Shown here: piece after piece, positions 11,603 to 46,700 of the stretch
Numbering within the stretch: position 1 is the first letter of the stretch
How the letters are laid out: every line of letters begins with the position of its first letter
Translations under genes and position numbers: made by a program
Source: Blasia pusilla
Lineage: Eukaryota
Length of the DNA: 64,000 nt
Direction: 5' to 3'
Assembly: GCA_050084515.1 (NCBI GenBank)
Contig: CM114271.1
Span: forward strand, 15,748,001-15,812,000
The notes under the pieces: generated by a model
The model's input: the letters and a program-made list of their open reading frames with translations, nothing else
Databases searched by the model: none
What the model was told of the DNA's origin: nothing

Positions 11603-12168
11603 TGTCGTACGCATACACATCGCTACACAACATACATTGCTCTCACCGAGCACACACATAAACACGCACGATCCCATGCTAACTCATGGGAACTTTGTTG
11701 AGCCTCTTGGCATGAGGTGGCGGAGCTATGGTCCTCCTTACCTTGTGTGTGTAACCCAAACCTTTCATTAGAAAAGTGGGTTTAGTTTGACATAAGAGAG
11801 AGTTCACACCATGGAGAGCTTGGTGTGAGATGTGTTGAGAGATCTACTTGATTTATAAAGAGAGAATGAACTCTCAAACTCTCTCTCTTGGAGGTATATC
11901 CCCTTCCTTCTCCAAAGCTCTCTCCTCGGTAACCTATGCTCGCAGGTCATCTCCTTGGCTCTTGACCTGTTGTAGTGGGTCAATGGCCATTTTCCAAAGT
12001 GGAAAGTCAACTATACTCCAAATGGAAATGAGCCGAAATGAACGGGAAACCTACTCTCGCAGGTTACCCGTGGCCTCAGTAGGTCATCCTTGACCTTCTG
12101 AGGCTATCCTCCAGTATCTCTGAAGGTACTCTACTAGATCTTGCCCATCTATCCTAAAAGATGCGACA
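11603..12168 (-). mobile_element. Short A+B terminal-repeat-only derivative (solo unit) of the copy A/B subfamily
   Basis: On the minus strand it starts TGTCGCATCTTTTAGGATAGAT (matches the 13412 terminus) and ends TGTGTATGCGTACGACA (matches 22591-22607). There is no coding DNA and no clear TSD. Confidence 0.85.
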
Positions 12169-18700: not shown

Positions 18701-21700
18701 CGGGTGTTGAATCTCTTTGGAGGGATCATCACTGGGTTAGCTATTTTTTTGCAGGCAGAAGTACGCGTGCAGCAGTACCTATATGTGGAGATTGATGATG
18801 TTGCGAGGCACACTTCACTTCACCATGTGGCACAGTTATGCCTCCGTTTTCCCAACTTGTTGTCTGCGCCCCCTGTCCAGGGATACTAGAGTTTCCTACC
18901 GAGGGATATTTTATTGTGGGGGGCGCAGTACTTGGAGCGGGTAGAAACCATAGACTTGGTCATTGCTGATTGGCCATGTCAAGGCCACTCGAATGCTAGA
19001 TGGAGTAGCAGATTAGTTGACTCGCGGTCCTTGTTGTTATGGGGGATGATGCGGATCTTGCGATATTCATAGGAGCATTAGTCTCGTTCTCCAGCATACA
19101 TTCTAGAGAATGTGTCGCTTTTGGGCGATTCGAGGTCCCGCGTGGTGACGAGTGCACATCAGGTGCGTGCATGGATAGGCCCGGAAGTGTTGTTGGATGC
19201 GGCAAGTATAGGTTCACGAGCACATTGCCCGCGTCTTTGGTGGACCAACTTGGTGCCACATGAGGTTTTGCGAAGGGCGCATGCGAGAGTGGAGCGTCCC
19301 TTCCATTTGTTGGTGGATTCTATTGTGGATGCACATCGTCGATCACACACAGTGAGGTACGATGATCAACCGCCATTGGCTATGGTCAATAGGATTGGCA
19401 TGCCGCGAGCAGACTTTCCCACATTGGTGAGTTTTCCCGCTTCCTATGCATTCAAGAAGGCCGCGCCAGGCTTGGTTTGGGATGACTAGGTGCAGCGGTT
19501 GGTAGAACCCAACACTGATAAGGGAGAGCGAGTGATGGGATTCCCCACAGGAGTGACGGCAATATCATCACTATCAGAGGCATCACAACGTCATGTCTTT
19601 GGTCACGCAATGGACCTGAACTTCTTGACATGGATTTTCAGCTTAGGAGTAGTTGAGAAATGTCGTTTGAGGTTGCAACAGATTACAGCTGTTGCGTTTG
19701 TGAGCCCCATGCCTACCAAGATGGTTGAGGAAGTGGCTAGGGATGAGACGCGAGGAGATCGACACACCAAGGATGATTGGGAGAGACACCCTTGGACTTC
19801 TTGGGATTTTTTGCAGGTAGGCCAGGAGATGGTAGCCACAACATTGAGCGTGGTTCCGAGTACTGCATATAAAGATGAGATTTTGCAGTTAGCTGCAGGA
19901 GAGCAGTCGAGTTCTGTTTCCCGAGACAGGGTTGCACCATAGCAGCCACCTATACCCGCGCCCGAGAGTCCTACCTTAGTCACAATGGAGACTTGGGAGC
20001 GAGACATGGGCTCTAAGTTGACAGGAGGAGAGCGGCGCCAAATACATCAATTCCTAAGGAGTTATAGGAGTTGTTTTTCATTTAGCATGCAAGAATGGGG
20101 TAAGCTGAAGGGTCTAGGGATCCGCATTGAGTTGTCGAGTGACACGCTGATCTTCCGACGATCCTACAGGTACAACGACATGGAGAAGGCTCTGATTCAG
20201 AGTAGGAGCCAAGACTTGGTTGGAGCAAGACTAGTGGAGATGTCGCATGGAGAGTATGCATCTGCCACTGTCATGCCCGCCAAGAAGGATGTGCATGGAA
20301 ACTGGACAGATAGGCGGATGTGTGGAGATTACAGACCTATTAATCGGTAGACAAAGTCCGATAGGTATGCCATGCTCACCCCTTAGGAGATCTTTGATGC
20401 CATTGGGTATGCAAAGGTCTTCAATTCATTGGATTTGCGAGCCAGATACCATCAGCTTCTTATTAGATTGGAGGACATGCAGAAGAGGGTATTTTGGGGC
20501 ATCGATTCTCATGAGAAGGATTATTTGTACCAATGACGGTTCTTACCATTCAGGTTAAAGAACATCCTGGTTGAGTTTCAGAGGGTTATGGATAGGATCT
20601 TGGCAGGTTTGGATTTTGCTAGGTGTTATATTGATGACATCGTAGTCTTTAGCGCCACGGTTCAGGAGCATGAGCGACATCTAGAGGAGGTGTTCCGATG
20701 ATTGCAGTGACATGGGCTAAAGCTACATTCAAGAAAGTGCAAATTCTTCTACAACCAGATTGAGAACTTGGGTCATACGATATACCTAGAGGGCCTTGGG
20801 TGCAGGAGACAAAGGTAGAGGCTATTTCACGCATTCCACGCCCTACAGATGTGAGTATAGTTCGTGCATTCATGGGATTGGCGAACTTCTATAGACGGTG
20901 CGTCAAGGATTTCAGTTTGATTTCGAAGCCGCTAACCTTGTTGACCAAGGTGGATCAAGAGTGGCACTGGGGGGATGAGGAGGAGAGAGCATTTCAGCTG
21001 CTCAAGGATAAATTGACGTCCGCGCCCATATTGAAGAGACCGATCAGGGGGGATCCTTTCTAGTTGCATATTTATTGGAGCATGTAGGGCTTGGAGTTGT
21101 GCTCCTCCAAGATGATGATGATGGTAGAGAGCTCGTGGTGGAGTCACTTGAACAACGCTGTAGAGGCAAAGTATGGCTCGTATGAGGGTGAGTGCTTGGC
21201 TGCCATGTGGGCTGTCGTACATTTAAGGTGTTATTTATTCGGAGTCCCCTTGACCATCATTACTGATCATCAGCCATTTAAGTGGTTGATGGAGTCCGAC
21301 AAGCTTACAGGGAAGCTTGCGAGGTGGGCTCTTTTATTGCAAGAGTATAACTTCCAGGTGGTGCAAGACCTGGGATGCTCAACCAGGATCTAGATGGTTT
21401 GAGCCGTAAGCCATGCCTGAGTGAGCGAGATGCAAGGGTTTAGGGTTGATGAGGAGTTGGCATGGTGAGAGTGATGAGGATTTGGTGCTAGGATGGCACG
21501 CGTCAACCTATTTGGGTTTGTTGGCTATGGAGAGCCAAATTTCTGAGACTTCGATGGCGAGGTCTAATGGAGAGTCCTTAGATCCAGAGGCCAGTGAGGA
21601 AACGACAAGTGGCCGAGATATTCATGACGATGGAGTGGTCTTGGAGTACCTGCGTACTGGTATGCGTCGCAAGCACAATGGGTGCTAGACAACGGGATCG

Positions 21701-22320
21701 GATCCTAAAGCAAGCGAGACGGTTCCGGTGGGAGAGGACACATGTGTTGCGAGTTTGGGAGGATGGTAGAGTGCGTGTAGTGCCTCATCCTTTGTAGAGA
21801 GCACATTTGATGTGTCATGCCCTCGAGGAGTTGGGTCATTTTGGAGTGAAGCGGATATACAACCTGCTCCAAATACATTATTAGTGATGAGGCATGCAAA
21901 CTAACGTTCAGCAGTTTGTTGCCACGTGCATGGTGTAATCGGGTCCGAGCATCGTTCAATGCTCGACTCCACAGTTGCATCCACTTCCAATCATGGGTTT
22001 AGGTTATAGATGGAGTTTGGATTTTGCAGGACCTTTGCCTTTGATAGAGTGCCATAGTTGTTAAGTGTTGGTGATGGTCGAGCACTTCTCGAAGTGATAG
22101 AGTTCGTTGCATTGCGTGACAAAGCAAGTGAGGGAGTAGCGTATGCCTTTCTAGATTGACAGTTAAGTCATTACGGCACATCAACTCGACTGACCAATGT
22201 ACAGAGTTTCGCGGGGAGTTTCAGGCCTTGTGTGATCAGACACTAATTGACCACCGCATCACTTGGACAGATTGACGACCGTACCACTTGGACAGATTTG
22301 GCGAGATCATCCTAATTCTG
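15760..22320 (+). pseudogene. gag-pol polyprotein of copy B (multiple stops and frameshifts; integrase C-terminus/PHD deleted)
   Basis: ORF fragments from 15887 to ~22260 reconstruct the Gypsy domain order with an extra methyltransferase. Homology to copy C breaks after the DHRTT..DHP motif (~22260-22310). Confidence 0.9.
18698..19650 (+). pseudogene. DNMT3-like C5 cytosine DNA methyltransferase domain inside the retrotransposon pol (copy B)
   Basis: In-frame motifs, reading through stops: I IRVLNLFGGI; II YVEID; IV IDLVIADWPCQGHS (PCQ at 18974-18982); VI YILENV; VIII LDAASIGSRAHCPRLWWTN; IX-X ERVMGFPTGVT...RHVFGHAMD. Confidence 0.9.
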
Positions 22321-22633
22321 ACTTGTGTCTATGACATGGATGACAAGAAGGCGACTAACGATGGGGCCACATGAGCACCCAAACTTTCTGCTCTTAGCGT
22401 CCGAGAGATGTATGTCATGGTAGGTAGGGATAGATGGCTATCTGGAGTTAGAGGGACCTAACCACCAGCTAGGGGGCCGATTGGAGATATTTTGGTACTT
22501 CTCGTCTCGTTGTTTGGATGCCATGAGTTAGCATGGGATCGTGCGTATTTATGTGTATGTTTGGTGACAACGATGTATATTGTATTGCGATGTGTATGCG
22601 CACGATAATGATTTTTAGTTCAACTTAAGTGGG

Positions 22634-23231: not shown

Positions 23232-24224
23232 TATCATTTTCATTTTCCAAATATTATGCACAACAACACAACGATGATAAATCTATCTTTGAAGATTTTA
23301 CCTCTAATCTTGGCTGCTCACACACACCAAGTTCTAGTGGAGCGCAGTAGCTTCGGATTGGATCAATAATTTTTCTTGATATGTCAGCTCGACTTTTAGG
23401 TGGAAGAGAGATCAAATTCTTTCTGCCTATAAAGTATAGAAGATAGAAGCACAACGTTGAATAAATAGAAAGGTAAAGATGTTTCTCATAGATCAAGGAT
23501 TTGAATTCCCAAACGAGGAGCTTAGCTCATAGTTCAAAGCATAAGGTGTGCGCAATGTATATATACATAACTAACTCTTCATTTTCTCATGATATTGTTT
23601 GCATAGTGGGAGGGAAGATTCATTCTATCTTTTAAGGAGTTCTCACACTGAGTCCTTGAAGATGCAAAGCTCAACCATAGATATTAGGCTTATAGTGCAA
23701 AGCATGTTATGTAGATCTAAATTGAAGAAGTTTACATATCCATAATTAATCAAGAGGTAAAACTCCCCATGAAGCATTCTTAAAATCTTAAGAATGAAGC
23801 CTAATCTAGCTTTTTCCTCTCTATTCGGATGTCTAATATGATTTTATATTCCAAAAGTAAAAAAAGGAATATTTTGTTGGCTACCTTGGAACCTTTTTCT
23901 GTACAAAAATTTCCTCCCTAAGAGCCAAAGTATTACAGCTAGTAAGGATGTGATCTTCCTCTGAAATAAGAATTAGAGTAACTTAGCAACTCCAATTTCA
24001 TAATTAACTATCATCATGGAACCAAATAGTGTTGTGAAGTAAAATTATCCACTATGTATATTGCACTTCTAGTAGTGTTAGAAGGAGTCTTATAAGTATT
24101 AAGTATATTAGCTTAGAAAAATAAAATTTCATGTTTAAACCTCTTTAGGATGCCTCATTTTTTTTGCCCAATTTTAAGAGAAGAAGTAATAAAGGAGACA
24201 TAAGAAATATAAAAGTTAAATAGT

Positions 24225-30840: not shown

Positions 30841-30943
<103 letters not shown>

Positions 30944-32035: not shown

Positions 32036-32537
32036 GATGGTTACAGGTTGTTGCCTCTCGTTTGGAGGTGATTGTTGAGGAGGTGGTGGACCTACCCTTG
32101 AAGCATGTGCTCGGGATGTCCTTCACATAGTCATGGTATGTTGCAGCAGAAAAGTTGGTAGATATCCTAGCTAGGCCAGCAATAGGGTATAAGAGTGAGA
32201 GAGATGGCTTTCTCAAGCCATCTTTCTCATGTTAAGCCATAGGAACCCCTCTTTTCCATAGACGTATGTGAGTGTGTAGGAGTTAGGGTGCTAGCATCCG
32301 GATTTCCTCATAGTAGAGGATGGATGTGGTTCGATATGCCGATGCAGATTCAAGAGTGGAGTTTTAGGCCGGGTGAGCCAATTTTACTAATCTGATTTTG
32401 TTATGGGGTCTCAATGTATATGTGTGAGTTTGTTTGGTTTATGGATGGATCGACCCGTGTGTTGGGAAGATCGGTGTTGTGTGGTGTGTAGATATGACCA
32501 TCAATGTGGTTGTGTAGCAATGTGTATACGCACGACA
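32036..32537 (+). mobile_element. Internally deleted fragment of the DNMT-Gypsy family (gag-pol scrap plus partial A and complete B repeat)
   Basis: 32036-32185 matches B ~17745-17880. 32195-32537 matches the reverse complement of copy C's A and B repeats and ends TGTGTATACGCACGACA. Confidence 0.8.
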
Positions 32538-33900: not shown

Positions 33901-33985
33901 GATGGACTTAAAGAGCGTCAAAGGATGCCTTAATTTTCTAGATAATTTGATTTGGTGAAAATTCTTAGAGATAAGCTCTTGAAGT

Positions 33986-34123
33986 TGTCGTGCGCATACA
34001 TATCGCTACACAACATACATCGCTGGACACATCTCCACCACACAACACCGATCTTCCCCACACACGGGTCGATCCACACATGTACAAAAATCAACGCATA
34101 CATATACATGGAGATCATACAAC
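33986..34123 (-). repeat. Terminal repeat B2 of copy C (138 bp)
   Basis: Direct repeat of 34606-34743 with about 11 mismatches. Confidence 0.9.
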
Positions 34124-34603
34124 AAAAATAAAGAGTAGTAAAAATGGCACACCCGGCCTAAAACTCCACTCCTCAATCTACATCGGCATATCGAGCCTCG
34201 TCCATCCTGTGCTATCAAGAAATCCGGACGCTAGCACCCTAGTCCTATCTCATACACATACAAGAGAGGTGCTCCAACGGCCCAACATGAGAAAGATGGC
34301 TTAGGAAAGCCATCTTCCTCTCTTATATAGGGTTGGGAAGAGCCAAAAGGCTCTTCCCCCAAAAATAGCCCTCCCCTTGGTAACCTACGCGCACAGGTTA
34401 CCAAGGGCGGGTGACCTTGGCAACAAGTCACCTGGATGTGAAAGACCTCAACATGAAAGTTGTCGGAAATGACATTCTTGACACAATGGACCTATCCTCA
34501 ACCTCACCCGAAACCATGGGATAAAGTTACACTCAAGATAGTCGGCTGGCTCCTACGCCCTATCCACGATAGATCTCAGCCTATCGGCTACTCAGATGTG
34601 ATA
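34124..34603 (-). repeat. Repeat A2 of copy C (~480 bp)
   Basis: Direct repeat of 43285-43758. Confidence 0.9.
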
Positions 34604-34605
34604 GC

Positions 34606-34743
34606 TGTCGTGCGCATACACATCGCTACACAACATACATCCCTGGTCATATCTACACCACAAAACACCAATCTTCCCCACACACAGGTCGATCCACACA
34701 TGTACAAAAATCAACTCATACACATACATGGAGATCACACAAC
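34606..34743 (-). repeat. Repeat B1 of copy C, immediately downstream of the purine tract
   Basis: On the minus strand it follows CCAGCTAGGGGGGCA (34744-34758) and matches B2. Confidence 0.9.
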
Positions 34744-34819
34744 TGCCCCCCTAGCTGGCAGTTGGATCCTTCCAACTCCAGATAGAAAATATCATATCTC
34801 TATGACATGACCTACTACC

Positions 34820-34966
34820 CTATACACATCTCAGACACATCCATCGTCCCGTGGGAACCACATCACGAAGGAGGGTCAGACATGACATATGCCACCCTGG
34901 AGAAAAACCATCACATACCAACATGGTGGCTGCATCCCTCGCAAATCCGCACAACATACATCTCAA
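34820..34966 (-). other. PHD finger (C4-H-C3) at the integrase C-terminus of copy C
   Basis: RCMLCGFARDAATMLVCDGFSPGWHMSCLTLLRDVVPTGRWMCLRCV matches PHD spacing (one Cys mutated to Phe), including the MLxCDxC..xH..C and P.G.W.C..C hallmarks. Confidence 0.85.
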
Positions 34967-37900
34967 GCCTGCAAATACCACTGCCAAGCTCGGATCCACC
35001 ATTCCGTCTACGTTCGGAAGATGACATGGCGCACGATTGCGCACATGATCCTTCCAAACCATACCATCCCGTCCCTCCAACATGAGGACTCCGGTCGGTA
35101 ATATCTCGCGCACACGTAGGATCGTGCGCCTTGTAGTGACATCTAGCGTCGTGGGTGTCGCCTGCTGTAAATACACGTAATCTCTAGGATGAAACCTCAT
35201 AATCCTTGGACGATAATCTCCTCCACAAATGGTCGCGTACCTCAATGTATCTCTATGTTGAGCAATAGCTAAGTTCTCAAAGGCCATAGGCATAACTCTA
35301 CGAAAAACCTCCGCCCTCTGAGAACATGCTTGTACCCACACATCTGGATCATCAAGATCTAACACCTCCGCCATGTCACGTCGAATCGCTGCAGGTAAAT
35401 TTGGCTCTCTCCCAAAGAGCAAAAATTGTGGTGAAAATGATGCCAAGGATGCCTACCGACTAAAGCGATAACCCATAGCCAACCATGGCAAGTGTAGATC
35501 CCACTCCCTCAACTGTCCTCGCTGCAAGCCATACTTGCGCAATCCTCTCTTCACCGTCCGTACCACTCTCTCCGCCAACCCATCCGCCTCAGGATGATCT
35601 CTGGACGTGGTGCTGTGATCTATCAACGCTTGATCACACAAGGCCTCAAACTCTCCCCTGAACTCGGTACCCTGGTCAGTCAATACCTCCGCCGGTGCAC
35701 CAAAGTGACTAAGCACATGATCTAGAAAAGCATAAGTTGTTCCCTTGCTCGCCTTGTCTAGTAGTGCCACCAACTCTATCCACTTGGAGAAATGCTCCAC
35801 CATGACCAACACGTACCTATGATGACGCCCCGTAAATGGCAAAGGTCCCGCAAAGTTTAAACTCCACCGATAACCTAAACCCATAATAGGCAACGGATGT
35901 AACTGCGAAGTGGGAGCATTGAAGGATGCTCGCACTCTATCACATACTATACATCTGGCCACAAACTGTTGTACCCCAGTATGCATGTCGTGCCACCAAT
36001 ATTGAATCTGGAGTAAGCTATAAGTACGCTTCAGTCCAAAATGTCCCAACTTCTCATGGGCATGTCGCACTACACGTGCTCGTTGGGAAGGATGAGGTAC
36101 CACTCGTATCCTACCATCTCCCCATACCCGCAAAATGTGAGTCCCTTCCCACCTGAACCTCCTAGCTCTCTGTAGGATCCAATCCCGCTCCCTAGCACTC
36201 ACTATGCTCGCTATGACGCCAGTGTGCAAGAACTCCACAACCTCCACGTCATCATGGATATCATGACCACCTGTCGCCTCCTCACTGACCTCCGGATCCA
36301 AAGACTCATCATCCAACCCCACCACTAGAGTCATCACCCGTGGTTGACCTGCCATAGTCAACCAACAAAGATAGGGAGATGCATGCCAATCGGGCACCAT
36401 CTCCTCATCACTCTCTCCGTGCCATCGAGCTCATGTTTCGTCTCTCTGACTTGGACATGGATTATGACTCAACCCATCCGTATCCTGGTTTATACGACTT
36501 GGCTTAGGAACCACCTCAAACTCATACTCCTGTAGTAATAGAGCCCATCTGGCAAGCTTTTCCGTAAGCTTGTCAGACTCCATCAACCACCTGAACGGCT
36601 AATGATCACTGATAAGTGTGAAAGGGTTGCCGAATAAATAGCACCTGAAATGTGTCACGGCCCACACTGCAGCCAAGCACTCTCCCTCGTAGGAGCTGTA
36701 CTTTGCCTCTGCAATGTTGTTTGATCGGCTTGCGTAAGCCACAACAAACTCCCTCTCCTCGTCATCCCTCTGAGTAAGCACTACTCCTAGACCCAACATG
36801 CTCCAATCCGTATGTAACTAGAATGGGCGACCCCTAACCAGTCTCTGTAAAATGGGTGAGGACGTCAACCTATCCTTGAGCTCTTGAAATGCTCGCTCTT
36901 GATCATCTCCCCACAACCAAACCTGATCAAGTCTCGCCAACAAGGTCAAAGACTTTGCGATCGCACTAAAATCCTTGACATACCGTCGATAGAAGTTTGC
37001 CAGTCCAAGAAATGCTCGGACTCGACTCACATCTGTAGGACGTGGAATCTGTGCAAAAGCCTCTACCTTTGTCTGCTGAACGCCTAACCCACTCGGGTAT
37101 ATGGTGTGTCCCAAGTACTCAATCTGCTCTTGAAAGAATCTGCACTTGCCTGGATGTAACTTCAGTCCATGAAAGTTCAATCGCCGAAATACCTCCTCCA
37201 GGTGTCGCTTGTGCTCCTCAAGTGTGGAATTGAAGATAAGAATATCATCTATGTAACATCGTACAAACTCCAAGCCAGCCAGAATCCTATCCATCACTCT
37301 CTAAAACTCTGCAAGCGCGTTCTTCAACCCAAATGGTAAGAACCGCCACTAATACAAGAAATCTCTCCCGAACCGATCTATCCCCCAGAATGTTGTCTTC
37401 TCCTTGTCCTCCAACCTGATAGGAAGCTGATGATAGCCAGCATGGAGATCTAAAGTACTGAAGATCTTTGCATGCCCTACCGCATCAAAGATCTCCTCAG
37501 GAGTAGGCATGGCATACCGATATGACCTCGTCTGTCGGTTGATAGGACGGTAATCTCCACACATCCGCCTATCCGTCCAATTGCCATACATATCCTTCTT
37601 TGCCGGCATGACTCTGGCATATGCATACTCCCCATGTGATAACTCCACAACAAGTCCTAACTCGTGCTCTGAATCAAGGCTCGCTCCATATCGGAATACC
37701 TATAGGGTCGACCAAAGATCGGCGTATCACTAGCCAACTCAATCCGTATTCCGGGACCCTTCAGCGTACTTGGCCAAGTCTCTCATACTGAAGGCAAAAC
37801 AACTGACATGCCCTCTCAAAAACCTATGAACTCGCCCTCACTCTCCTCCTATCAACTTGAGACCTATCACAGGTTCCCAAGTTTCCATCGTGACCTCACT

Positions 37901-38189
37901 CGGAGAGGACGCAACCTCCGGCTTTGGTTGCTATGTAGCAACCCTAGCCACCTCCGCAACAGCCACTCCACTCTGATCTCCTACACCATGCTCCACATCC
38001 AAAAAAATGAACATGTACTACTCTGGCCGCCTTGGCACTCTCTACTCGAACGACGTCCCAAGAAGTCCATGGGTGCCTATCTCTCCTCGCCTACCAATGC
38101 CTGACCAATGCACTGTCAGACCACTGAGGCAATGGTCTAACTCGTGGACATGACGGCGTGGATGACACTTGCATCCGTCTCTACTCAGG

Positions 38190-39040
38190 CTGACTATCCA
38201 CGTGAGACAGTTGAGGTCCATCGCATGCCCCAACACCTATCTCTGGGATGCCTCACTAATCCCTGACACCGCCGTAGTACCGGTAGCAAATCCCATGGCG
38301 GGCTTGCGCTCATCTGCTGTAGGCTCCTCCAATGCTCCGGTCACCTCATCCCAAATCATGCATGGCCCTCCTTGACGAAAGGCATGGGATGCTGGGAAGC
38401 TCACCAACGTAGGTAAGGCTGCCCTCAACTCCCCCACCCTATTGGCCATGGCCAACGGTGGTCTATCATCCCGTGTCACCACGTGAGATTGTCGCCTTGA
38501 GCCCAAAATAGCATCCACTATGAGATGTGGTGCTCTGTGGACTCCATCGTATGCTCGACTCAGTACCTCTGATGGTATCAGGTTCGTCCACCACAGTCGT
38601 GGATGATGGGCACGTGATCCAACTCTCGCCGCATCTAGCAACACAGTAGGTCCCAACCAGGATCTCACTTGATGCACACTCGTCATCACACGTGCACAAG
38701 TGTCTCCCAATAATGGCACGTTCTCTAAAATGTACGTTGGAGAACATGTCTGACTCTCCTGCAAGTGTCATACTACTCGCAGCATCTCCCAAAACATCCC
38801 TGACCTTGGATCCTGCAATCCAAATCCTTGGCCAGCTGATGAATGACCCTAACATGGCCATCCAGAAATCACCAAATGAATGGTGCCAACTCTATCCAGA
38901 TCCTACACCGCCACCAAAGAGATGTCGGCAGGTAGTGTATGCTGATATCCCCATACTGGAGATATCGGCAACAACTCAGGATACCTCTGGACCAATCTCG
39001 CCGGTGCTAATCCCTCCGAAGAGATCTAACACCCTAACAC
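38190..39040 (-). pseudogene. DNMT3-like C5 cytosine methyltransferase domain of copy C
   Basis: VRVLDLFGGISTG; IHLVISGWPC*GHSSAG..GLQDPRSGMFWE (GWPC at 38852-38863); YILENV; LDAARVGSRAHHPRLWWTN; ERKPAMGFATGTT..LGHAMD. About 100 bp covering motif II is deleted. Confidence 0.9.
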
Positions 39041-42000
39041 CCTCCTTTGGGCACTGCCACACAACGGGTGTGGTATCTAGTGGGGTCAACGTCTCCACTC
39101 CAAGAACCCGATCGCCACGTGACTCTCGCTGCTCCGGGATAAAGGCATGACTCCAGGCCTGCCTCACGAGGTTGTTGGCACTCCTCTGTAGCTCTCGAGT
39201 TGTACCCCACAATGGTGAAGAGGTATCGCCAATATGGGAATAGACACCCGCCATGGCCTGTCTCTCCGTGGGACTATCCGCTACTGGGACATCCTCCGCA
39301 TGTGTTTTCCCCTCCAACAACTCTCCAGGCTAGCTAACACTACCTGTGAAAGATGCCGACGTGGTCACAGACTCGCCTCGTGATCGACCATCTCGTCCCG
39401 TAAACTGCACAGGTAATTGACTCATCCGCCCGTCACCTGACCGCCATCCTAGCCGATAAGCAACGGTCTCCTCCCAAAAGTCAAGGATGAATCCTAGAGG
39501 ATATAACACTGTACTCCCCACCAACATATCGTACGACTCAGCTGGTGTCGTAATCGCACGTGTGCCCACCATAGCACTATCCGTCGCATGCTCCGGCTGG
39601 ACTCTAACAACTATCTCCTGTCAAGTCATATACTACGTGAGTGACACGCCCCCAATCGAGGTCTCTATCTGGAAGGGACAGGGCTCAATGTCGGCCTTTC
39701 GTAACCCCAACGCTAAACACGCCGCCTTCCCTAACATCAAGGGTTGCGCTCCCGAATCAAGTAGGACGCGATGCAGGTGGTATACTGTCCTCGTCGGACT
39801 AACCAAGCAAAATACTCCAGCTTGGTTATCCAGTAACACTACTCCAGGTGTCACCATTGCTCATTCTATGGCCGGTCGAGCTGGCATATCTACCAACTTA
39901 CCCGCCGCCGCATGCCATGACTCTGTGGGGAATGTCCCAAGCACCGACTCTGAGGGCAAGTCCACCACCTCCTCAACTACCTCTAAACAAGAAGCACTCA
40001 TCTCTCCATGCTCACACAATATGGCGGCCAACCGGAACACCTCAGTTGGTCCAACTCCCAACGTCGCCAACTCTATGGCGGAAAATAGTGGAGTCTGACT
40101 CACTCTGGTGGCCACCTCCAACACTATGGTCGACAGTGACTCCACTCGAGCCGCAATAGGAGTTGTCACTCCAACTCCTCATGACGTCGACGCACCTGCC
40201 TGAGCTATAGGCACCGTTGGTCGTCGAGGCACCATCAATGGTGTGTGTAGTTCCTCCGATAATGTGAATGATTGTGGAACCCTGGCCTGCCACCCATCGG
40301 TCCCCTCTGGTGGGTCAATCTCAACTCCACCTCTCCATGGCTCGGTGCCGCTTGCAGCACCCCGAGTCACCACTGCAGCTGCCTCAACCTGGGTTGCACT
40401 ACACTTAAACCCCATACTGGCAAGATCCTCACCCGGATCAGGGTAAGAGGTAGAAGGTGGAGGCACACTAGCTGCTCGCGGCTCCGTGCCTTCCCTAAGC
40501 TGCATCATCATCATCATGGCAGCAATCCTCTCCTCCAACTAATCGATGCGTGAGAGAAGTGCCGACTCTGGTGCTCCTGCTCCATCTCCTCTGCCAGGTG
40601 GTGGTCCTCTACCACCACGTCTAGCACGACCGCCCCCAGGCCCTCGGCCTACCCCTAGACGTGCCTCTCGGCGAAGGTCAAAACACCTATCCCTAGTGTG
40701 ACCATATCTGTGGCAATAGTCAACCTGGTGCTGTGGTGGGGCCATCCTCTGTGGATCTTGAGCAATCGGAGGCGCTCGTAGTCCTCTCCCATGCTGTGGG
40801 CAGTCTCTCTGCCTATGGGCCTCTCCACACGTCCAACAAGACCACATCGGTCCCTGTTGGGCAACATATGTAGGTACGGGTCGTTGCCTCATAGGCTCAC
40901 GGTACCCGCCCTGCTCTCTGGGCACACCAGCCCGCTCCCGTGGTACTGGTGCTCGTTGTGGCATGTGTGGGGTCACCCGCACTCGTGGACCCATCGACTC
41001 TCGAGAAAATCCAGCGGTCACTACTTGCTCCTCACTCATGTTGAGCTCAATATGCTCAGACAACTCAAAGACCACCTTCAATGTGGGCTTCGCAGCGTGA
41101 ATCAGTACCGCATCTCGGACTCTCCTCTGTAGTTCTCGATCTAGAACAGCCGTACCAATACTGGACTGACTGCGCCTCAGTCACTACATACGTAGCAATG
41201 ATCATCCTCCTTATCCGTGTGAATGCCTCTCTCAGACTCTCACCCGATCGTCGCTGAAAATCCTATAGACTCTTCATCTTGTCGGTGCGTACGGCCTGGT
41301 AGCTCTTCCCCAACTGTTGTAAGAACTCCACTGTGGGGCTAAAGCTGGGTGGCCCTCTACCACCAAAGGTCTCTGCCATATCGCTTGTCTCATTGCCCTC
41401 CTCTCCATCTAGCCCCTCCAGGCTGATGGTGTGGGTCTCTCTCCTCTCACAATCCCATCATATGCCTCGCGACTATTAGTGGACACATACCTTGGAGCCC
41501 AATACATCCTCCAGGCATCGATCTCTACTGAATATAGTGATCGAAACTCCATGTAGTCATCCATCGGAGGACCCTCTAAGTGCTAGAACAACCCCTTCCA
41601 TGCCATGAAAGGGTTGAATCGTGTCGAGGTCCGTATCTCCTGGAAAGTCGCACCACGTGTCAAACTCCTGGATAAAATCATCTAAGTTCGATGGTGCCCA
41701 CTGCACCCGAGAAATGACGCATGCCCCAATGGCCCATGTCGTCCATCTCCTGCCAAGTACTACTATCTCTGTCTGCGATCTCGTCACCAGACCCAGTGTC
41801 TAGTGATGACGATCCAACCACGGATGGATGTCGAGGTAGCTCCTCACTGGTAACCCCTCGGTATCTCACTCTACTCCGTGTCACACCACTACCACTGCTC
41901 GCACTACCCCGTTCTTCCGAACCCTGGAAGAACGCCGCGATGACAAACCTTGTCTCACCCGCTCAAGCACTCAGACTCACTGAGAGTCTCCCACACTCCT

Positions 42001-43284
42001 CACTAGCTCACCTATGCTAACATCAATCCCGTGATGACATACCCGGCCTCACGTACACTCAACACTCGGGCTCACCATGAGCCTCCTAAATGACTCACCT
42101 AACCTAGCGACACTCTCCTGTCATACATGCGACCCCTACGCGGAAACCGTTGTATAGCCACCAACATGCTACACATGAAAAGAGTCTACACTCGTCACCA
42201 TCACTACACCCACCTAGCACCAGCTACTACCCGATACCCAACACTCTCAATCACACACGACAAGTGCGGGAAAAGGGACTCGAATGGGTAACTTGATCAC
42301 GCCCTCCAACCTACTGCACCGTCAACACTCACTCCTCCATGTGGTACGGAAACCTCTGCAACACGACACTCTCCTCGACCAACACGTCGATCCTCCCGTC
42401 GGCAGATGCAAGCTACCCATCAACATCACCACGTGCATCTCTACCTCTCGCATTCCATCGCAACTCTTGGCGCAAATCACTCATCTTGACACATGTTGCC
42501 AAAGTAGTAGCAATTCAACCTCTGTCAATGACTTTCAAGCTAGCAAATCCCGCCATGAATCACACTCTCGTCTCTAAACCACCAAGTGCCCAAAATTTCT
42601 CCCATTACGTAACCCAAATCAACTACGTATCTCCCCCAACCACGTATAACTCTACCACGTTGGTCCTAACTACGCTCATCCAACTTACTACGTCGGCCCT
42701 CTCTCTTGCTCCCCGACGTCTCTCCATCTGCCAGATTTCCCATCTCCCGGCCTTCTCATCTGCCTATGGCTTACGGTCCCTGCTTCCTAGTTCTGACTGA
42801 GCGTTCCTTCCTCCGCGCCAGTCCCACTAACCCTAGGTACTCCTTTCCTCCCGCTTTCCCTGCACGCTGCCTTCTGTAGCTTCCCACTTACATCTTGACC
42901 CGTTTCCCTATGCAAGGATGTTGCCCTTACTCCCTTGATCCTTCCACCTACACGCATCCCTATGCGCGTGGGTGCCCCATGGGCGTGGCTTAACCGTCCT
43001 TGATAATCCTTCTCACTAACTCCCAGGTCCGACTTCTCCATCCACGTACCTTCTCTCCTCAAGCGCGCATCCCTATGGACGTGACCCCGCTCTTACCCCC
43101 TTTTGTCTTGGCTGGCAGCTCTTGGGCCCGCGTCTCCCTAGAGCATGCGCGTGGCTCCTTCTGACTCTCCCATCCGGAGCCATCCCCTGGAGACACGTGT
43201 CTCCAGGGGCTCCGGACCAAGGCAACTCGCTTGCCTATCTGCAAACAAGCAATTCCCACTAGCCCCCTAACATCATTCTCATGT

Positions 43285-43758
43285 AAAAATAAAGAGTAGT
43301 AAAAACGGCACACCCGGCCTAAAACTCCACTCTTCAATCTACATCGGCATATCAAACCTCGTCCACCCTATGCTATCAAGGAATCCGGACGCTAGCACCC
43401 TAGTCCTATCTCACACACATACAAGAGAGGTGCTCCAACGGCCCAACATGAGAAAGATGGCTTAGGAAAGCCATCTTCCTCTCTTATACAGGATTGGGAA
43501 GAGCCAAAAGCCTCTTCCCCCAAAAATAGCCCTCCCCTTGGTAACCTACGCGCACAGGTTACCAAGGGCGGGTGACCTGGTCAACAAGTCACCCGGCTGT
43601 GAAAGATCTCAACATGAAAGTTATCAGAAACGACGTGTCTGACACAATGGACCTATCTTCAACCTCATCCCACACTGTGGGACAAAGTTACACTCAAGAT
43701 AGTCCGATGGCTCCTACGCCCTATCCACGATAGACCTATCAGCTACTCAGATGTGACA
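43285..43758 (-). repeat. 5' terminal repeat A1 of copy C (~474 bp)
   Basis: Matches 34124-34603 and is not accompanied by a B repeat. Confidence 0.9.
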
Positions 43759-46700
43759 AAGTGGATCAAGCCCTTTCTTTAATCAATTGATTGAAAGGGG
43801 GAAGAGGAGCCTAAAAATGTTTGGTTTTTGTTGGAAAATTATTAGCTGGTTGGTTGAATAATGCAGCCTCCCATGAAGAAGATCATACACAAGAATATCA
43901 TTTACTAGGTTTAACTTTAAGATATAAGATAGGGTCTCTCCACAAAATAGGTGTAAGTAGGAACCATTTGAGACGAAGGACCTCTAATATGGGTCTAGGC
44001 CATAGAAGGGAAGAGACAAGATGAAAATGGTTGGAATAATATTTGAAGGGCGCAAAAATTGAAATGGCAAAAAGTAGGAAACCCATGGGATGATCTTGAC
44101 ATGTGCCACATAATTCTCTATTACTATTGCAAAGTGTCTCTTCTTTCAAACTCTTCTCTTCTTGGCATCCCGTGTCTCCTAAGCCAAAAAGATCACTCGC
44201 TCTCTCAACCAATAGGATCACTCAAGATCAATAAAAGAGGAGAGAGGTATGTTAAATCCTTAATCACATTTTTTCAAGGGCACCTAATACTAGTTACTAT
44301 TAGGATGATGTATTTCCATATGTTTCTACAACATATGATATGACATCTCATATTTCATTTTTAAAACACATTCGAGAATATTTATTCACGTAGTAACTCA
44401 TTTTCAATCAATAATATAAATTTTCCACAAAGTTGGGGTAAAAATTTTATGATGCTTCACGGCATCATAAAATTTTCAAATTTTAACACTAGAAAAGGAT
44501 TTAGCTCTCACATACCTTTTTGGGGTACACGTCCGATCACAAAATCCAATCGATCGCATGCATTGGTATTAGCCTATTGTAATTTAAATTTCAACTTGTG
44601 TAAGAGGTGTAAGTATAAACACGTAATTCCGAAAGCGAAGTTTCCGTTTAGTATTATTGTGTGGCGATCGTCGTGGGGTGGGTAGGATGTCATCGACTAC
44701 TTTCATGCATGGCTATGGCACACTCCGGGGGTCGCTGTAAATATCCTTAGCAGTTAGTTGCATAGCATATTAAGGTACGTACGTCTCCACATGCTACACA
44801 TCAAGTCATTCCACAAGAGATGGGAGAAATGGAACCCTCGAAATAGGTCAGGCCACGTGGTCCCCATCCAAGATTGCCGAAGGAAACGGTAAGCAAATGC
44901 TTGCAAACAAGGTTCTTGTGACTGCCTTCCTTCCAGAATTAGACAGGATTTAATTCATGAAAGAGAATTTATGTTCAGACAGAAAATGCTTGAAAAAGTC
45001 GTGAGCTGGATGCAGGAAACACAAATGTTCCTAAAATGTGTACATCTCAACGGTGTTGTTTAGCGATTAACGCGCATTCGACGAATTTATTTCGATTGAG
45101 GGACGGCGGAACTCGTGGAGTAACAAATCCCCTCTATCGGAAGAAACTCGTGGAGTTTGATTTGATTCGACTTTTCATGTATGAGAAATCTAGATCGTAA
45201 TCTTTCGGCCGAGCCTGACATTCTGCTTCAGGCGTTGCACGGATTCCACTACGACCACTTCAAGTTGGGACGGGTCCTTGGTCGAACTCAAGTGGAAGAT
45301 TAATTAACTGCAGTTCAAGTGCAAGCAAGCGGGTGGTGCAAGCACTAGGGTGGTCCTGAGATCCGCGTTCATTAGCCACTGAAAAGATCGAGATCTGCAG
45401 CGGGGGTGCGGGGCCAAGCATTTTAGGATCGAGATCAAGGAGTTGGAACTCGAGGACGCTGGAAAGCTGATCGATGACTTCCATGTGGTATGGGCACTGA
45501 GGGTGGAGGTGGAGGCAGTTAAGAGAGACGAAGACAACTGCTCCAGACCTTTCTCTCTCCAAATTAAGCTTTATTTGAGAGGCCGTGCGCGAGTGCAGGG
45601 ATCCAGGACCTGCCGATGCAGCAGGAAAGCGGCCTGCATGACGAGAGTTGGACTGCTGTAGGTCTAGAGCGGGCTACCTACACAGGCGACTGGCTGCATC
45701 AATCCACGCGTTGTAGTTCACCTTACTTTTGGATTCAGATTTCCCTGGTGATCCGTGCCCTACCAACATCACGTGGACACAGTGGCTCTCGTCTTCAGAC
45801 TCGGTTCAAGACTCGACTGTTGGCAGGTATGTGGCAAAGCAAGCACGAATTTGGCACAGGCACCAGTTCGCATGAGCTCAGCGCTGAATCGATACACTCC
45901 ACCAACCAAAGCTCATTGGCATGCTGCTTTATCCCAGTAGTCTGGAATAGCAAGACTTTCTCCGTGGGACAACTAGGACCGGTCATGAAGTGGATTCTCC
46001 TGCGAGTATCGTTCCATGCAGTTAGTTACTCCAAATCAAAAGTCCTTAATTAGCCTTCCAATCGACCGACATAGACCTACGCTAAGCCCCGTCCGCTCAG
46101 CTTTTATCACTAGGAATTAACTTTCAGGCTTCCCCCATAAGCCCCCATATGTTCTAAAATCAAGAACTTCCTCTCAAGATTGACATTTTCGGGACGTTAA
46201 GCGTCGGTAAGAACTCTTTGGACTCGTTAATTTCGTGGGCAGACCCAGTCCTTCAATGATTACAACGTACGTACAAACGTTAACTTATCCGGTTGCGTCC
46301 CATCCATGGCCCGAGAAATTTGTCGAGCTCTTGGCAAAATTAGTCTTCGAGATTTAGGAATGTGTTGAAGATTAAGATTGAAATCTTGAAGTGTGCAGCT
46401 CTCCAGGGATCGAGAACCAAAACACCCAAGTACCAGAACATACCACTCGATCCGAAATAACTAAGTTGATCTCACTGCGTAGACATCCATCCGAAGGTCA
46501 AGGACATATGTAGGCCTCGGGGTTCTTAATTTTTTAATCTACATTTCTAGATCTGTAGAGCTATTACTAAGAGGAAACGATCGCGGAAGAGGCGTTTTTG
46601 AGCGATGACGGAAATACGTTGGGCACGTGGGTTATCCACCATGGGAACTTCACAACTGATTCAGAACTCTTGGCAACGTTTCACGAAGGTATCTGTGCAT

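What the first reader, a model, noticed from the sequence alone, without database searches (positions are those of the whole stretch)
33986..43758. DDE-integrase Gypsy element with split direct repeats (A1-internal-B1-A2-B2) instead of two LTRs
Seen: the 5' end has only repeat A (43285-43758). The 3' end has purine tract, B1 (34606-34743), A2 (34124-34603) and B2 (33986-34123). The outer ends are TGTC...GACA with a 4-bp AAGT duplication. Copies A and B also begin with an A-type end lacking B, and copy B has B right after its purine tract. Established: A...BAB split repeats typify tyrosine-recombinase retroelements (Ngaro, PAT/TOC1) that integrate via circles, whereas Gypsy elements have identical LTRs. 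Inference: the replication-defined LTR is B+A (TG after the PPT; A1 ends TTTTTACA), but integration uses ends inside it, as if a two-LTR circle were opened at the B|A junction. LTR-finding tools would mis-annotate such elements.
Basis: partly seen in the sequence, partly recalled or inferred. Interest (0 to 1): 0.85.

Follow-up and report, generated by a model that had tools for sequence, protein, structure and literature searches.

The report
Gypsy retrotransposon with split terminal repeats
A decayed plant Gypsy-type retrotransposon carries its end repeats in the order A–genes–B–A–B instead of two identical LTRs, apparently because its integrase cuts at a palindrome inside the LTR; the layout is real and family-wide, but was already noted once in print for an algal relative.

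Summary
The element (minus strand, 43758..33986) reads A1–internal–purine tract–B1–GC–A2–B2, with TGTC…GACA ends and a 4-bp ACTT duplication. It is a dead Ty3/Gypsy element: gag, protease, C5 DNA methyltransferase, RT, RNase H, DDE integrase, PHD finger. No tyrosine recombinase was found.

The layout is a family trait. In 80 related metagenome loci, all 19 distinct 5' ends start with A alone. Of 22 distinct 3' ends, 5 are B-A-B and 17 are B only. None is conventional. Seven of 10 complete copies have perfect 4-bp duplications.

The replication-defined LTR is B+A: the purine tract abuts B, and the bases just after A complement the presumed RNA 5' end (Tf1-like self-priming, three lineages). The B|A joint is always …ACA-NN-TGTC…, a palindrome holding both integration ends. 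The A|B joint is an exact U5|U3 abutment.

The best reading is that the integrase opens a two-LTR circle, or an equivalent joined cDNA, at the internal palindrome. B-only copies arise at least partly by B1/B2 recombination. The circle step is inferred, not shown.

De Mendoza et al. 2018 noted DIRS-like repeats in the DNMT-bearing Gypsy of Klebsormidium, so this is a new member of a known kind, now with a testable mechanism.

The parts
43759..43762 (-). Target-site duplication, 5' side (ACTT on the element strand)
   Evidence: Read. It matches 33982-33985.
43285..43758 (-). Repeat A1. It starts TGTCACATC and ends ATTTTT. It holds a decayed TATA (TGTATAAG, 43483-43490) and the presumed primer segment (TTCTCATGT, 43446-43454).
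43268..43284 (-). Presumed self-priming primer-binding site (ACATGAGAATGATGTTA), directly after A1
   Evidence: Nine nt are perfectly complementary to A positions 305-313; 18 of 1000 shuffles reach this length. Read by eye, the match extends imperfectly to about 16 of 18. The copy is decayed.
40539..41180 (-). gag fragment with a CCHC zinc knuckle (CWTCGEAHRQRDC)
   Evidence: Translation. Pfam zf-CCHC hits the homologous ORF of L013. There is no Pfam hit for this decayed fragment.
39330..39860 (-). Aspartic protease fragments (VLLDSGAQ)
   Evidence: The homologous part of L077 hits Asp_protease_2, below Pfam's own cut-off.
38237..39329 (-). C5 cytosine DNA methyltransferase in two broken pieces. 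Motif I DLFGGISTG lies in 38976-39329. ENVPLL and RLWWTN lie in 38237-38767.
   Evidence: relatives carry PF00145; L077 PF00145, E 5.4e-12.
36599..37699 (-). Reverse transcriptase and RNase H, broken into three ORFs
   Evidence: Pfam RVT_1, RT_RNaseH and RT_RNaseH_2.
35453..36430 (-). Integrase: H2C2 zinc finger plus the DDE core. The first catalytic D is N here (SLNFAG).
   Evidence: Pfam Integrase_H2C2 at 1.2e-15 and rve at 2.9e-12. Residues read against the Ty3 alignment of L077.
34820..35452 (-). Integrase C-terminal region ending in a PHD finger
   Evidence: Pfam PHD at 1.7e-05. The same domain in L077 scores 4.3e-10.
34744..34756 (-). Polypurine tract region AGCTAGGGGGGCA, directly before B1
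   Evidence: The tract is conserved in E2 (22467-22479) and in 17 metagenome loci.
34606..34743 (-). Repeat B1. It starts GTTGTGTGATC and ends CGCACGACA.
34604..34605 (-). Two-base spacer (GC) between the B end and the A start. It is the centre of the att-like palindrome.
   Evidence: Nine of 9 intact B|A joints have exactly 2 nt here.
34124..34603 (-). Repeat A2. It starts TATCACATC. TATATAAG lies at 34322-34329.
33986..34123 (-). Repeat B2. It starts GTTGTATGATC and ends CGCACGACA. This is the 3' end of the element.
33982..33985 (-). Target-site duplication, 3' side (ACTT on the element strand)
13412..22607 (+). Related copy E2 (73% identical to E1 over the pol region). Parts: A' 13412-13909, primer-binding site 13911-13934, purine tract 22467-22479, B' 22479-22607, then unrelated flank. 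This is the A-int-B form.
   Evidence: (24-nt perfect complement, 0 of 1000 shuffles).
1..5656 (-). Related copy E3, cut by the window edge. Its 5' end is A' alone, followed by a primer-binding site AAGAGAGAATGAG.
11603..12168 (-). Solo A'B' unit. Its last ~215 nt of A' are inverted.
32044..32537 (+). Rearranged fragment of a third subfamily (80% identical to E1): a gag piece joined to the 3' part of A, then B. The A|B joint reads ATTTT|GTTATGG.

Best explanation
WHAT IT IS. The element is a decayed copy of a high-copy bryophyte-type Ty3/Gypsy family. The family encodes gag, protease, a C5 DNA methyltransferase, RT, RNase H, a DDE integrase and a PHD finger. Its integrated form is A-int-B-A-B.

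HOW THE LTR IS DEFINED. Reverse transcription defines an ordinary LTR made of B followed by A.
- The plus strand is primed at the purine tract, so U3 begins with B.
- The minus strand is self-primed, Tf1-like, by the 5' end of the RNA folding back on a primer-binding site just after A. A therefore carries the promoter, R and U5.

HOW IT INTEGRATES. The integrase does not use the outer ends of this LTR. Its two recognition ends (TGTCAYG... and ...CRYGACA) lie back to back, 2 bp apart, as a palindrome at the B|A joint inside U3. The cDNA is first joined U5-end to U3-start, most simply as a two-LTR circle. It is then opened at the palindrome of the LTR that precedes the genes. The resulting linear A-int-B-A-B inserts with a 4-bp duplication.

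WHY THIS FORM PERSISTS. Only this permutation keeps a promoter upstream and a complete B-A (U3-R) downstream, so only it can replicate again. Copies of the form A-int-B arise at least partly by B1/B2 recombination. Some may also come from cutting one-LTR circles, or from cutting both LTRs of linear cDNA.

SHOWN: the layout, ends, duplications, domain content, purine tract and complementarity, and the exact joints.
INFERRED: the transcription start, the self-priming, and the joined or circular precursor.
For: LAYOUT AND ENDS
- Layout and ends of the window element.
- Family-wide: 223 stretches matched, 119 were confirmed, and 80 loci were kept.
- blastn with the A and B of L078 against all 80 loci and flank de-duplication give 19 distinct 5' ends, all TGTCATGACC directly after unrelated flank. 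None has B or A upstream.
- The same analysis gives 22 distinct 3' ends: 5 are purine tract-B-NN-A-B-flank and 17 are purine tract-B-flank.
- L015 shows B|A and then the contig ends. L073 and L074 (one locus) have B fused to A by a deletion.

DUPLICATIONS
- Perfect 4-bp duplications occur in 7 of 10 complete copies: E1, L078, L042, L022, L044, L057 and L079.
- L036 and L040 match 3 of 4 bases. L066 matches 2 of 4.

JOINTS
- The B|A joint is ...ACA-NN-TGTC... with exactly 2 nt in 9 of 9 intact joints. In L078 it is a perfect 16-bp palindrome, CATGACAGCTGTCATG.
- These joints include two further lineages: L077, and a second element in L063.
- The A|B joint is the U5 end abutting G+TTGTG, where G is the last purine-tract base. 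It is exact in E1, the 32.4-kb fragment, L003 and L026. L078 and L075 have A in place of G. L042 has a 20-nt insert.

AGE OF THE REPEAT PAIRS
- The A and B pairs are about equally diverged in two of the three copies: E1 92.1 against 92.0%, L078 92.1 against 93.8%. In L042 A is more diverged than B (85.8 against 91.5%).
- This is as expected if both pairs were made in one replication cycle.

SELF-PRIMING
- The bases directly after A complement A 19-36 nt downstream of the TATA box.
- The perfect matches are 24 nt in E2 (0 of 1000 shuffles), 15-16 nt in L078 (0 of 1000), 10 nt in L079 (6 of 1000) and 9 nt in E1 (18 of 1000).
- The sequences differ between lineages while the pairing is kept.
- RNA folds close the 5' end onto this site, with z -2.7 and -4.85.

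INTEGRASE
- H2C2 and rve domains are present, and D, D, E align to Ty3 in L077.

CONVERSION BETWEEN FORMS
- L075 (B-A-B) and L057 (B only) share a collinear 3' flank, 95-99% identical over 5 kb, and the same joint.

READS
- DNA depth is about 700-1200 on the element against about 2 on the flanks.
- Four DNA reads join 43758 to 33986 with GC between them.
- 34, 60 and 51 RNA reads in three runs run from the B end into an A-type start.

PRECEDENT
- From search listings and abstract starts only: retroviral integrases cleave the palindromic LTR-LTR joint of two-LTR circles (PMC1180852, PMC1905944).
Against: - No circle, circle junction or cleaved intermediate was observed. The four DNA reads joining the two ends with GC are indistinguishable from the B1|A2 joints of other genomic copies.
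- Random opening of a two-LTR circle at either of its two identical palindromes predicts as many A-B-A-int-B insertions as A-int-B-A-B. None of 19 distinct 5' ends is A-B-A, against 5 to 7 B-A(-B) 3' ends. Faster collapse of A-B-A by A/A recombination, or an asymmetric precursor, has to be assumed.
- A-int-B copies outnumber A-int-B-A-B by 17 to 5. This fits direct insertion of A-int-B from linear or one-LTR forms as well as it fits recombination.
- The element interiors of L075 and L057 are only 91.4% identical while the far flank is 98.9% identical. Their identity as one insertion therefore needs faster decay inside the element.
- The transcription start and poly(A) site were not mapped. The folds started at a 5' end that I chose.
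- In E1 the primer-binding-site match is weak (9 nt).
- E2 and the solo unit lack a clean duplication.
- The metagenome loci come from unknown hosts and are mostly one young family.
Confidence: 0.6

Rival explanations
1. Linear route without circles. The integrase cuts the internal palindromes of an ordinary linear BA-int-BA cDNA, so A-int-B is the primary and mostly dead product. The rarer A-int-B-A-B arises when reverse transcriptase runs on from the U5 end to a U3 start (end-to-end template switch, or a tandem-LTR cDNA) before the integrase picks the outermost palindromes.
For: A-int-B is the commonest form: 17 of 22 distinct 3' ends. Five such copies have perfect duplications. No A-B-A-int-B forms are seen among 19 5' ends. 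The A|B joint is mostly exact, as a templated or clamped jump could give.
Against: The route needs the integrase to remove 115 and ~340 nt from the ends rather than 0-2 nt. An extension on the left end would be as likely as one on the right. L075 and L057 show that at least one B-only copy descends from, or shares an insertion with, a B-A-B copy. A-int-B cannot replicate, so every lineage would depend on the rare by-product.
Confidence: 0.22
2. DIRS/Ngaro-like mobility. A tyrosine recombinase, hidden in the element or supplied in trans, integrates a circular cDNA, and the DDE integrase is a relic.
For: A-int-B-A-B is the layout typical of tyrosine-recombinase retroelements, as stated in PMC5890265 for SymbioDIRS.
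Against: No Phage_integrase or other recombinase domain appears in the 46 ORFs of E1 or in the 2476 aa of L077 ORFs. Perfect 4-bp duplications occur in 7 of 10 copies, with TG...CA ends. The integrase of the near-intact copy keeps H2C2 and D, D, E.
Confidence: 0.03
3. Local accident. This would be a conventional element with AB or BA LTRs that suffered a deletion and duplication, a tandem or nested insertion, or a mis-assembly at this locus.
For: The copy is old and broken. Its repeat pairs are 92% identical, it has many stops, and the first integrase D is N.
Against: The same layout, with its own duplications, occurs in independent assemblies (L078, L042) and at five B-A-B 3' ends, and in at least four sequence lineages. 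No conventional end is seen in 19 + 22 distinct ends. The duplication flanks the whole A1...B2 unit. The A and B pairs are equally diverged.
Confidence: 0.02

Closest known systems
KnitGypsy-Dnmt3 of Klebsormidium nitens (de Mendoza et al. 2018, PMC5890265; I read section 9 whole, other passages by search, and one xlsx supplement)
   Same: It is a Gypsy-type pol with a C5 DNA methyltransferase inside the pol ORF. The Fig. 4c legend says its repeats are arranged as in a DIRS element (A-coding-B-A-B) while its domains are those of Gypsy.
   Different: The host is a charophyte alga, whereas the named relatives here are liverworts and Sphagnum. No Klebsormidium-named protein was among the 18 + 42 + 28 hits, and no KnitGypsy sequence was available, so relatedness is untested. 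In the text I read, the paper gives no duplication, palindrome, primer site or mechanism. Its PDF supplements could not be read.
DIRS / Ngaro / PAT / TOC1 tyrosine-recombinase retroelements
   Same: They share the split direct repeats A1-int-B1-A2-B2. The internal B1|A2 joint holds the two termini side by side.
   Different: Those elements encode a tyrosine recombinase, lack a DDE integrase and make no target duplication. This family has the reverse on all three points. The TOC1 and Ngaro details are recalled, not read here.
Retroviral two-LTR circles cut by integrase at the palindromic LTR-LTR joint (foamy virus, HIV-1 in vitro; PMC1180852 and PMC1905944, listings and abstract starts only)
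   Same: A DDE integrase recognises two viral ends placed back to back as a palindrome in a circle and re-linearises it.
   Different: In retroviruses the palindrome is the LTR-LTR joint itself, so cutting restores LTR-int-LTR. Here the palindrome lies 113-157 bp inside U3, so cutting gives a permuted A-int-B-A-B. The spacer is 2 bp here. The retroviral figure of 4 bp (2 + 2) is recalled, not read here.
Tf1/sushi group, including the plant Tcn1 clade (self-priming; Neumann et al. 2019, PMC6317226, passages read)
   Same: The primer-binding site next to the LTR is complementary to the start of the element's own RNA rather than to a tRNA.
   Different: Those elements have ordinary LTRs and a chromodomain. 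This family has split repeats and a PHD finger. Phylogenetic placement was not tested.
Ty3 (solved intasome 7q5b)
   Same: It is the best solved sequence relative of the RT-RNase H and integrase parts (E 7.8e-102). The domain order is the same.
   Different: Ty3 has two identical LTRs, a tRNA primer and 5-bp duplications (recalled), and no methyltransferase or PHD finger.

Membership tests
Ty3/Gypsy LTR retrotransposons | pol order protease - RT - RNase H - integrase | tested here: met
   Pfam on E1 fragments and on the near-intact L077. The best PDB match is Ty3. A methyltransferase is inserted between the protease and RT.
Ty3/Gypsy LTR retrotransposons | DDE integrase with an H2C2 zinc finger | tested here: met
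   Integrase_H2C2 and rve hit E1, L077 and L013. D, D, E align with Ty3 in L077. E1 itself has N for the first D.
Ty3/Gypsy LTR retrotransposons | Two identical LTRs bounding the integrated element | tested here: not met
   The integrated form is A-int-B-A-B or A-int-B. No conventional ends are seen in 19 + 22 distinct ends.
Ty3/Gypsy LTR retrotransposons | TG...CA ends and a short target-site duplication | tested here: met
   The ends are TGTC...GACA. A perfect 4-bp duplication occurs in 7 of 10 complete copies.
Ty3/Gypsy LTR retrotransposons | Purine tract before the 3' LTR and a primer-binding site after the 5' LTR | tested here: met
   The purine tract abuts B1. The site after A1 is complementary to A itself. 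Use as a primer site is inferred.
DIRS/Ngaro/PAT tyrosine-recombinase retroelements | Encodes a tyrosine recombinase | tested here: not met
   No such domain at E <= 0.01 in the 46 ORFs of E1 or the three long ORFs of L077. A six-frame search of the contigs with PF00589 was not possible.
DIRS/Ngaro/PAT tyrosine-recombinase retroelements | Split direct repeats A1-int-B1-A2-B2 | tested here: met
DIRS/Ngaro/PAT tyrosine-recombinase retroelements | Insertion without a target-site duplication | tested here: not met
   4-bp duplications are present.
Gypsy-DNMT3 elements (KnitGypsy-Dnmt3) | C5 DNA methyltransferase domain inside a Gypsy pol | tested here: met
   PF00145 hits relatives and L077. Motifs DLFGGISTG, GWPCQG, ENVPLL and RLWWTN appear in alignment A1. 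The motif numbering is recalled.
Gypsy-DNMT3 elements (KnitGypsy-Dnmt3) | DIRS-like arrangement of the terminal repeats | tested here: met
   The feature is as worded in the Fig. 4c legend.
Gypsy-DNMT3 elements (KnitGypsy-Dnmt3) | Sequence relatedness to the Klebsormidium elements, and a methyltransferase of the Dnmt3 type | tested here: inconclusive
   No hit named Klebsormidium. These were word-limited searches, so this is weak evidence. No KnitGypsy sequence is held in the readable supplement. No methyltransferase phylogeny was made.
Tf1/sushi (Tcn1) self-priming chromoviruses | Primer-binding site complementary to the 5' end of the element's own RNA | tested here: inconclusive
   Complementarity is strong in E2 and L078 and weak in E1, and the folds agree. 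The RNA 5' end itself was not mapped.
Tf1/sushi (Tcn1) self-priming chromoviruses | Chromodomain at the integrase C-terminus | tested here: not met
   A PHD finger is there instead, with no chromodomain hit.

The most novel reading that the evidence does not exclude
This clade of plant Gypsy elements has moved its integrase attachment site from the LTR tips to a palindrome inside U3. It must therefore pass through an end-joined (two-LTR-circle or tandem-LTR) cDNA that the DDE integrase re-opens. That would make it a third integration route for retroelements, beside integrase acting on linear cDNA ends and tyrosine recombinase acting on circles. It would also show that split direct repeats arise by convergence from the geometry of opening a circle, not from the kind of enzyme. 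Circular cDNA, usually regarded as a dead end, would be the obligatory precursor.
Probability: 0.4. Interest if true: 0.8.

Novelty: new member of a known kind. Interest (0 to 1): 0.6.

Why it matters
Split direct repeats are used as a diagnostic of tyrosine-recombinase retroelements. LTR finders also assume two identical terminal repeats. This family breaks both rules while keeping a working-type DDE integrase, so it will be missed, truncated or misclassified by standard annotation. Read depth suggests roughly 350-600 copy-equivalents in the host of the window.

Mechanistically, the family offers a natural case in which unintegrated joined cDNA may be a required intermediate rather than waste. 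It gives a defined palindromic site that can be tested with recombinant integrase.

It also extends the methyltransferase-bearing Gypsy elements, reported from a charophyte, to land-plant-type genomes. Named relatives occur in Marchantia, Calypogeia, Riccia and Sphagnum.

Tried and rejected
- Whole genome of the window: none is held. Family tallies had to come from metagenome contigs of unknown hosts and from one read lay.
- Six-frame search of the contigs behind the loci for PF00589: the records are not held. I relied on ORF scans instead.
- Earlier findings of this scan: nothing by place, words or sequence.
- RNA holders: no RNA holder was listed by the index. The three RNA runs laid were added by species label.
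- Table 6 gave only one weak RNA end in A1 (5 molecules at 43485, inside the TATA region). I do not use it to place the transcription start.
- Read depth over A and B against the interior could not give the ratio of forms. B attracts reads from diverged subfamilies, and A1/A2 and B1/B2 share reads.
- Link to Klebsormidium: three protein searches returned no hit named Klebsormidium. The paper's readable supplement holds no sequences.
- Literature: 'KnitGypsy' and 'Gypsy-DNMT3' occur only in PMC5890265 and in bioRxiv 10.64898/2026.05.21.726589. 'split direct repeats' + gypsy + integrase gave 8 papers. By title and abstract start, none is about a DDE-integrase element with such repeats. No paper holds at least four of the terms LTR retrotransposon, self-priming, Tf1, palindrome and circle junction.
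- I first read the A|B joints as variable, which would suggest imprecise end joining. After fixing the U5 end and U3 start they proved mostly exact, so I dropped that argument.
- Tandem insertion of a solo A-B next to an A-int-B copy was rejected. The duplication flanks the whole unit, the inner spacer is 2 nt rather than 4, and the A and B pairs are equally old.

Full report
THE OBSERVATION

- The repeat finder and blastn of the element against the window pair 43285-43758 with 34124-34601/3 (A1/A2, 92.1% over 479 nt).
- They also pair 34606-34743 with 33986-34123 (B1/B2, 92.0% over 138 nt).

On the minus strand the order is: ACTT | TGTCACATC..A1..ATTTTT | ACATGAGAATG.. internal ..AGCTAGGGGGGCA | GTTGTGTGATC..B1..CGCACGACA | GC | TATCACATC..A2..ATTTTT | GTTGTATGATC..B2..CGCACGACA | ACTT.

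The ends are therefore TGTC...GACA with a 4-bp duplication, as stated.

WHAT THE ELEMENT ENCODES

Stop-to-stop ORFs on the minus strand hit the following Pfam families:
- RVT_1
- RT_RNaseH
- Integrase_H2C2
- rve
- a C-terminal PHD finger

A CCHC knuckle and a protease motif are readable upstream.

Between the protease and RT lie two pieces with C5-methyltransferase motifs.
- The 176-aa piece finds 18 longer proteins, most carrying PF00145. The named ones come from Marchantia, Calypogeia, Riccia (59-66% identity) and Sphagnum (44%).
- Their alignment shows DLFGGISTG, GWPCQG, ENVPLL and RLWWTN.

The copy is dead. It has many stops, and the first catalytic aspartate of the integrase is asparagine.

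None of the 46 ORFs of at least 70 aa on either strand hits a tyrosine recombinase.

OTHER COPIES IN THE WINDOW
- E2 (+, 13412-22607; 73% identical to E1 over the pol region) runs A'-internal-purine tract-B'-flank.
- E3 (-, from ~5656 to the window edge) starts with A' alone.
- A solo A'B' unit lies at 11603-12168.
- A rearranged piece at 32044-32537 ends A-B.
- E2 and the solo unit have no clean duplication (2 of 4 bases).

IS IT A FAMILY TRAIT?

No genome is held for the window. I therefore searched the metagenome contigs with the methyltransferase alignment. 223 stretches matched, 119 were confirmed and 80 were kept.

Self-comparison, reading of the ends and blastn with the A and B of L078 against all 80 loci gave the tally below, after removing loci that share flanks.

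5' ends:
- 21 were seen, 19 of them distinct.
- All begin TGTCATGACC directly after unrelated sequence.
- None has B or a second A beside it.

3' ends:
- 26 were seen, 22 of them distinct.
- 5 are purine tract-B-NN-A-B-flank (L003, L026, L042, L075, L078).
- 17 are purine tract-B-flank.
- L015 shows B|A and then the contig ends.
- L073 and L074 (one locus) have B fused to A by a deletion.

Of 10 complete copies (9 loci plus E1), 7 have perfect 4-bp duplications, 2 match 3 of 4 bases, and 1 matches 2 of 4.

Two more sequence lineages show the same 3' layout:
- The near-intact L077. Its ORFs of 701, 728 and 1047 aa carry protease + PF00145, then RVT_1, RNase H, H2C2, rve and PHD, with no recombinase.
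- A second element inside L063.

WHERE REPLICATION PUTS THE LTR

The purine tract abuts B in every copy. The bases directly after A are complementary to A itself, 19-36 nt downstream of its TATA box. One search gives the following perfect matches:

| Copy | Perfect match | Shuffles of 1000 reaching it |
|---|---|---|
| E2 | 24 nt | 0 |
| L078 | 15-16 nt | 0 |
| L079 | 10 nt | 6 |
| E1 | 9 nt | 18 |

The three lineages use different sequences but keep the pairing. RNA folds from that point close the 5' end onto the post-A site.

This is the architecture of Tf1-type self-priming. Neumann et al. (PMC6317226, passages read) predict self-priming in plants for the Tcn1 clade.

It follows that A ends where U5 ends and B begins where U3 begins. 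The transcription start itself was not mapped.

WHERE INTEGRATION HAPPENS

The integrated ends are the start of A and the end of B. They are inverted repeats (TGTCAYG... and ...CRYGACA) that are conserved across lineages whose methyltransferases are only ~50% identical.

At the internal B|A joint the two ends stand back to back with exactly two bases between them, in 9 of 9 intact joints. The spacers seen are GC, AT, AC and GT. In L078 the joint is a perfect 16-bp palindrome.

The other joint, A|B, is the U5 end abutting the U3 start (G+TTGTG, where G is the last purine-tract base):
- It is exact in E1, the 32.4-kb fragment, L003 and L026.
- L078 and L075 have A in place of G.
- L042 has a 20-nt insert.

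That is what an LTR-LTR joint looks like.

The A and B pairs are about equally diverged in E1 (92.1/92.0%) and L078 (92.1/93.8%). In L042 A is more diverged than B (85.8/91.5%). This fits both pairs being made in one cycle.

MECHANISM

The simplest account has three steps.
1. Ordinary reverse transcription gives BA-int-BA.
2. The ends are joined, as in a two-LTR circle.
3. The integrase makes its usual cuts after the two CA dinucleotides of the palindrome in the LTR that precedes the genes.

A 2-bp spacer means that the same two base pairs supply the 5' overhang of both ends. The linear A-int-B-A-B then inserts with a 4-bp stagger.

Only this permutation keeps the promoter upstream and a full U3-R downstream, so only it can found a lineage.

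There is precedent for integrase cutting the palindromic joint of two-LTR circles in foamy virus and HIV-1 (PMC1180852, PMC1905944; listings and abstract starts only).

B-only copies arise at least sometimes by B1/B2 recombination. L075 (B-A-B) and L057 (B only) share the same joint and a collinear flank that is 95-99% identical over 5 kb. Their interiors, however, are only 91.4% identical.

WHAT SPEAKS AGAINST THE CIRCLE STEP
- No circle was seen.
- Random choice between the two palindromes predicts A-B-A-int-B forms, and none of 19 5' ends shows one.
- B-only copies are the majority.

A linear route is a live rival (0.22). In it, the integrase cuts both internal palindromes to give A-int-B, with occasional run-on from U5 to U3.

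READS

In a raw whole-genome run of the coded host organism:
- The flanks have depth ~2 and the element ~700-1200 at 88% likeness or more. The family therefore has hundreds of copies.
- About 1000 reads leave the B end into diverse sequence.
- Four reads join 43758 to 33986 with GC between them.

Three RNA runs cover the element, mostly in one direction. That direction is sense if the libraries are of the usual stranded type, which I did not verify. In these runs 34, 60 and 51 reads pass from the B end into an A-type start, so the B|A joint is transcribed.

WHAT IS KNOWN

De Mendoza et al. 2018 (PMC5890265; section 9 read whole) describe KnitGypsy-Dnmt3 of Klebsormidium nitens. Their Fig. 4c legend states that its repeats are arranged as in a DIRS element while its domains are those of Gypsy. 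The text I read gives no mechanism, duplication or joint, and the PDF supplements could not be read.

A 2026 preprint (10.64898/2026.05.21.726589, passages read) speaks of 'streptophytes (Gypsy-DNMT3)'.

The term searches found nothing further.

I could not test whether the bryophyte-type elements are related to the Klebsormidium ones.

VERDICT
- The layout is a family trait of a methyltransferase- and PHD-bearing Gypsy clade.
- As a kind it is already in print in one figure legend, so I file it as a new member of a known kind.
- The internal palindromic attachment site, the 4-bp duplications, the exact U5|U3 joint and the self-priming site together give a concrete, testable integration model that I did not find in the literature searched.

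Noticed in passing
window 38237-39329 (-) and 34820-35452 (-); L077 2477-7804: The element carries a C5 cytosine DNA methyltransferase between the protease and RT, and a PHD finger at the integrase C-terminus where chromoviruses carry a chromodomain. Named relatives are in Marchantia, Calypogeia, Riccia and Sphagnum.
   Followed up: partly
window 11603-12168 (-): A solo A'B' unit has the last ~215 nt of A' (R-U5 plus the primer-binding site) inverted relative to E2 and E3. The inverted segment is bounded by the primer and primer-binding-site inverted repeats. This suggests a fold-back product of self-priming, or recombination between those arms.
   Followed up: partly
window 42525-43246: The leader just downstream of A1 is nearly private to this copy. 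DNA read depth is 3.7 (42525-42885) and 74 (42886-43246), against ~700-1200 elsewhere in the element. It holds a long perfect hairpin around 43170-43215.
   Followed up: no
L063 16150-16830: A second Gypsy-like 3' end has unrelated A and B sequences but the same plan: G-run purine tract, B1 (~157 nt), CATGACA-GT-TGTCATG, A2, B2. The first element of L063 is inserted in its RNase H region.
   Followed up: partly
L075 8059-13171 against L057 13370-18896: Divergence between the two versions of one flank falls with distance from the element: 92.7%, then 95.2%, then 98.9% identity. The element interior is 91.4% identical. Read differences on E1 are mostly transitions. This fits methylation-driven decay spreading from the element.
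   Followed up: no
window 22620-23233: Directly after the end of E2 lie a short inverted-repeat (MITE-like) unit at 22620-22720 and a 203-nt segment duplicated at 22741-22943 and 23031-23233 (99% identical), with inverted ends.
   Followed up: no
window 28543-28920 (-) and 30846-30943: There is a weak RT-like fragment of another retroelement (38-47% identity to the E1 RT pieces) and a 6-nt-period microsatellite.
   Followed up: no
L073 6852-7107 = L074 15013-15268: In this copy B and A are fused by a deletion across the palindrome between two similar ATGACNATATGT motifs. One lies near the B end and one near the A start. The two termini therefore share a direct subterminal motif as well as the inverted tips.
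   Followed up: no
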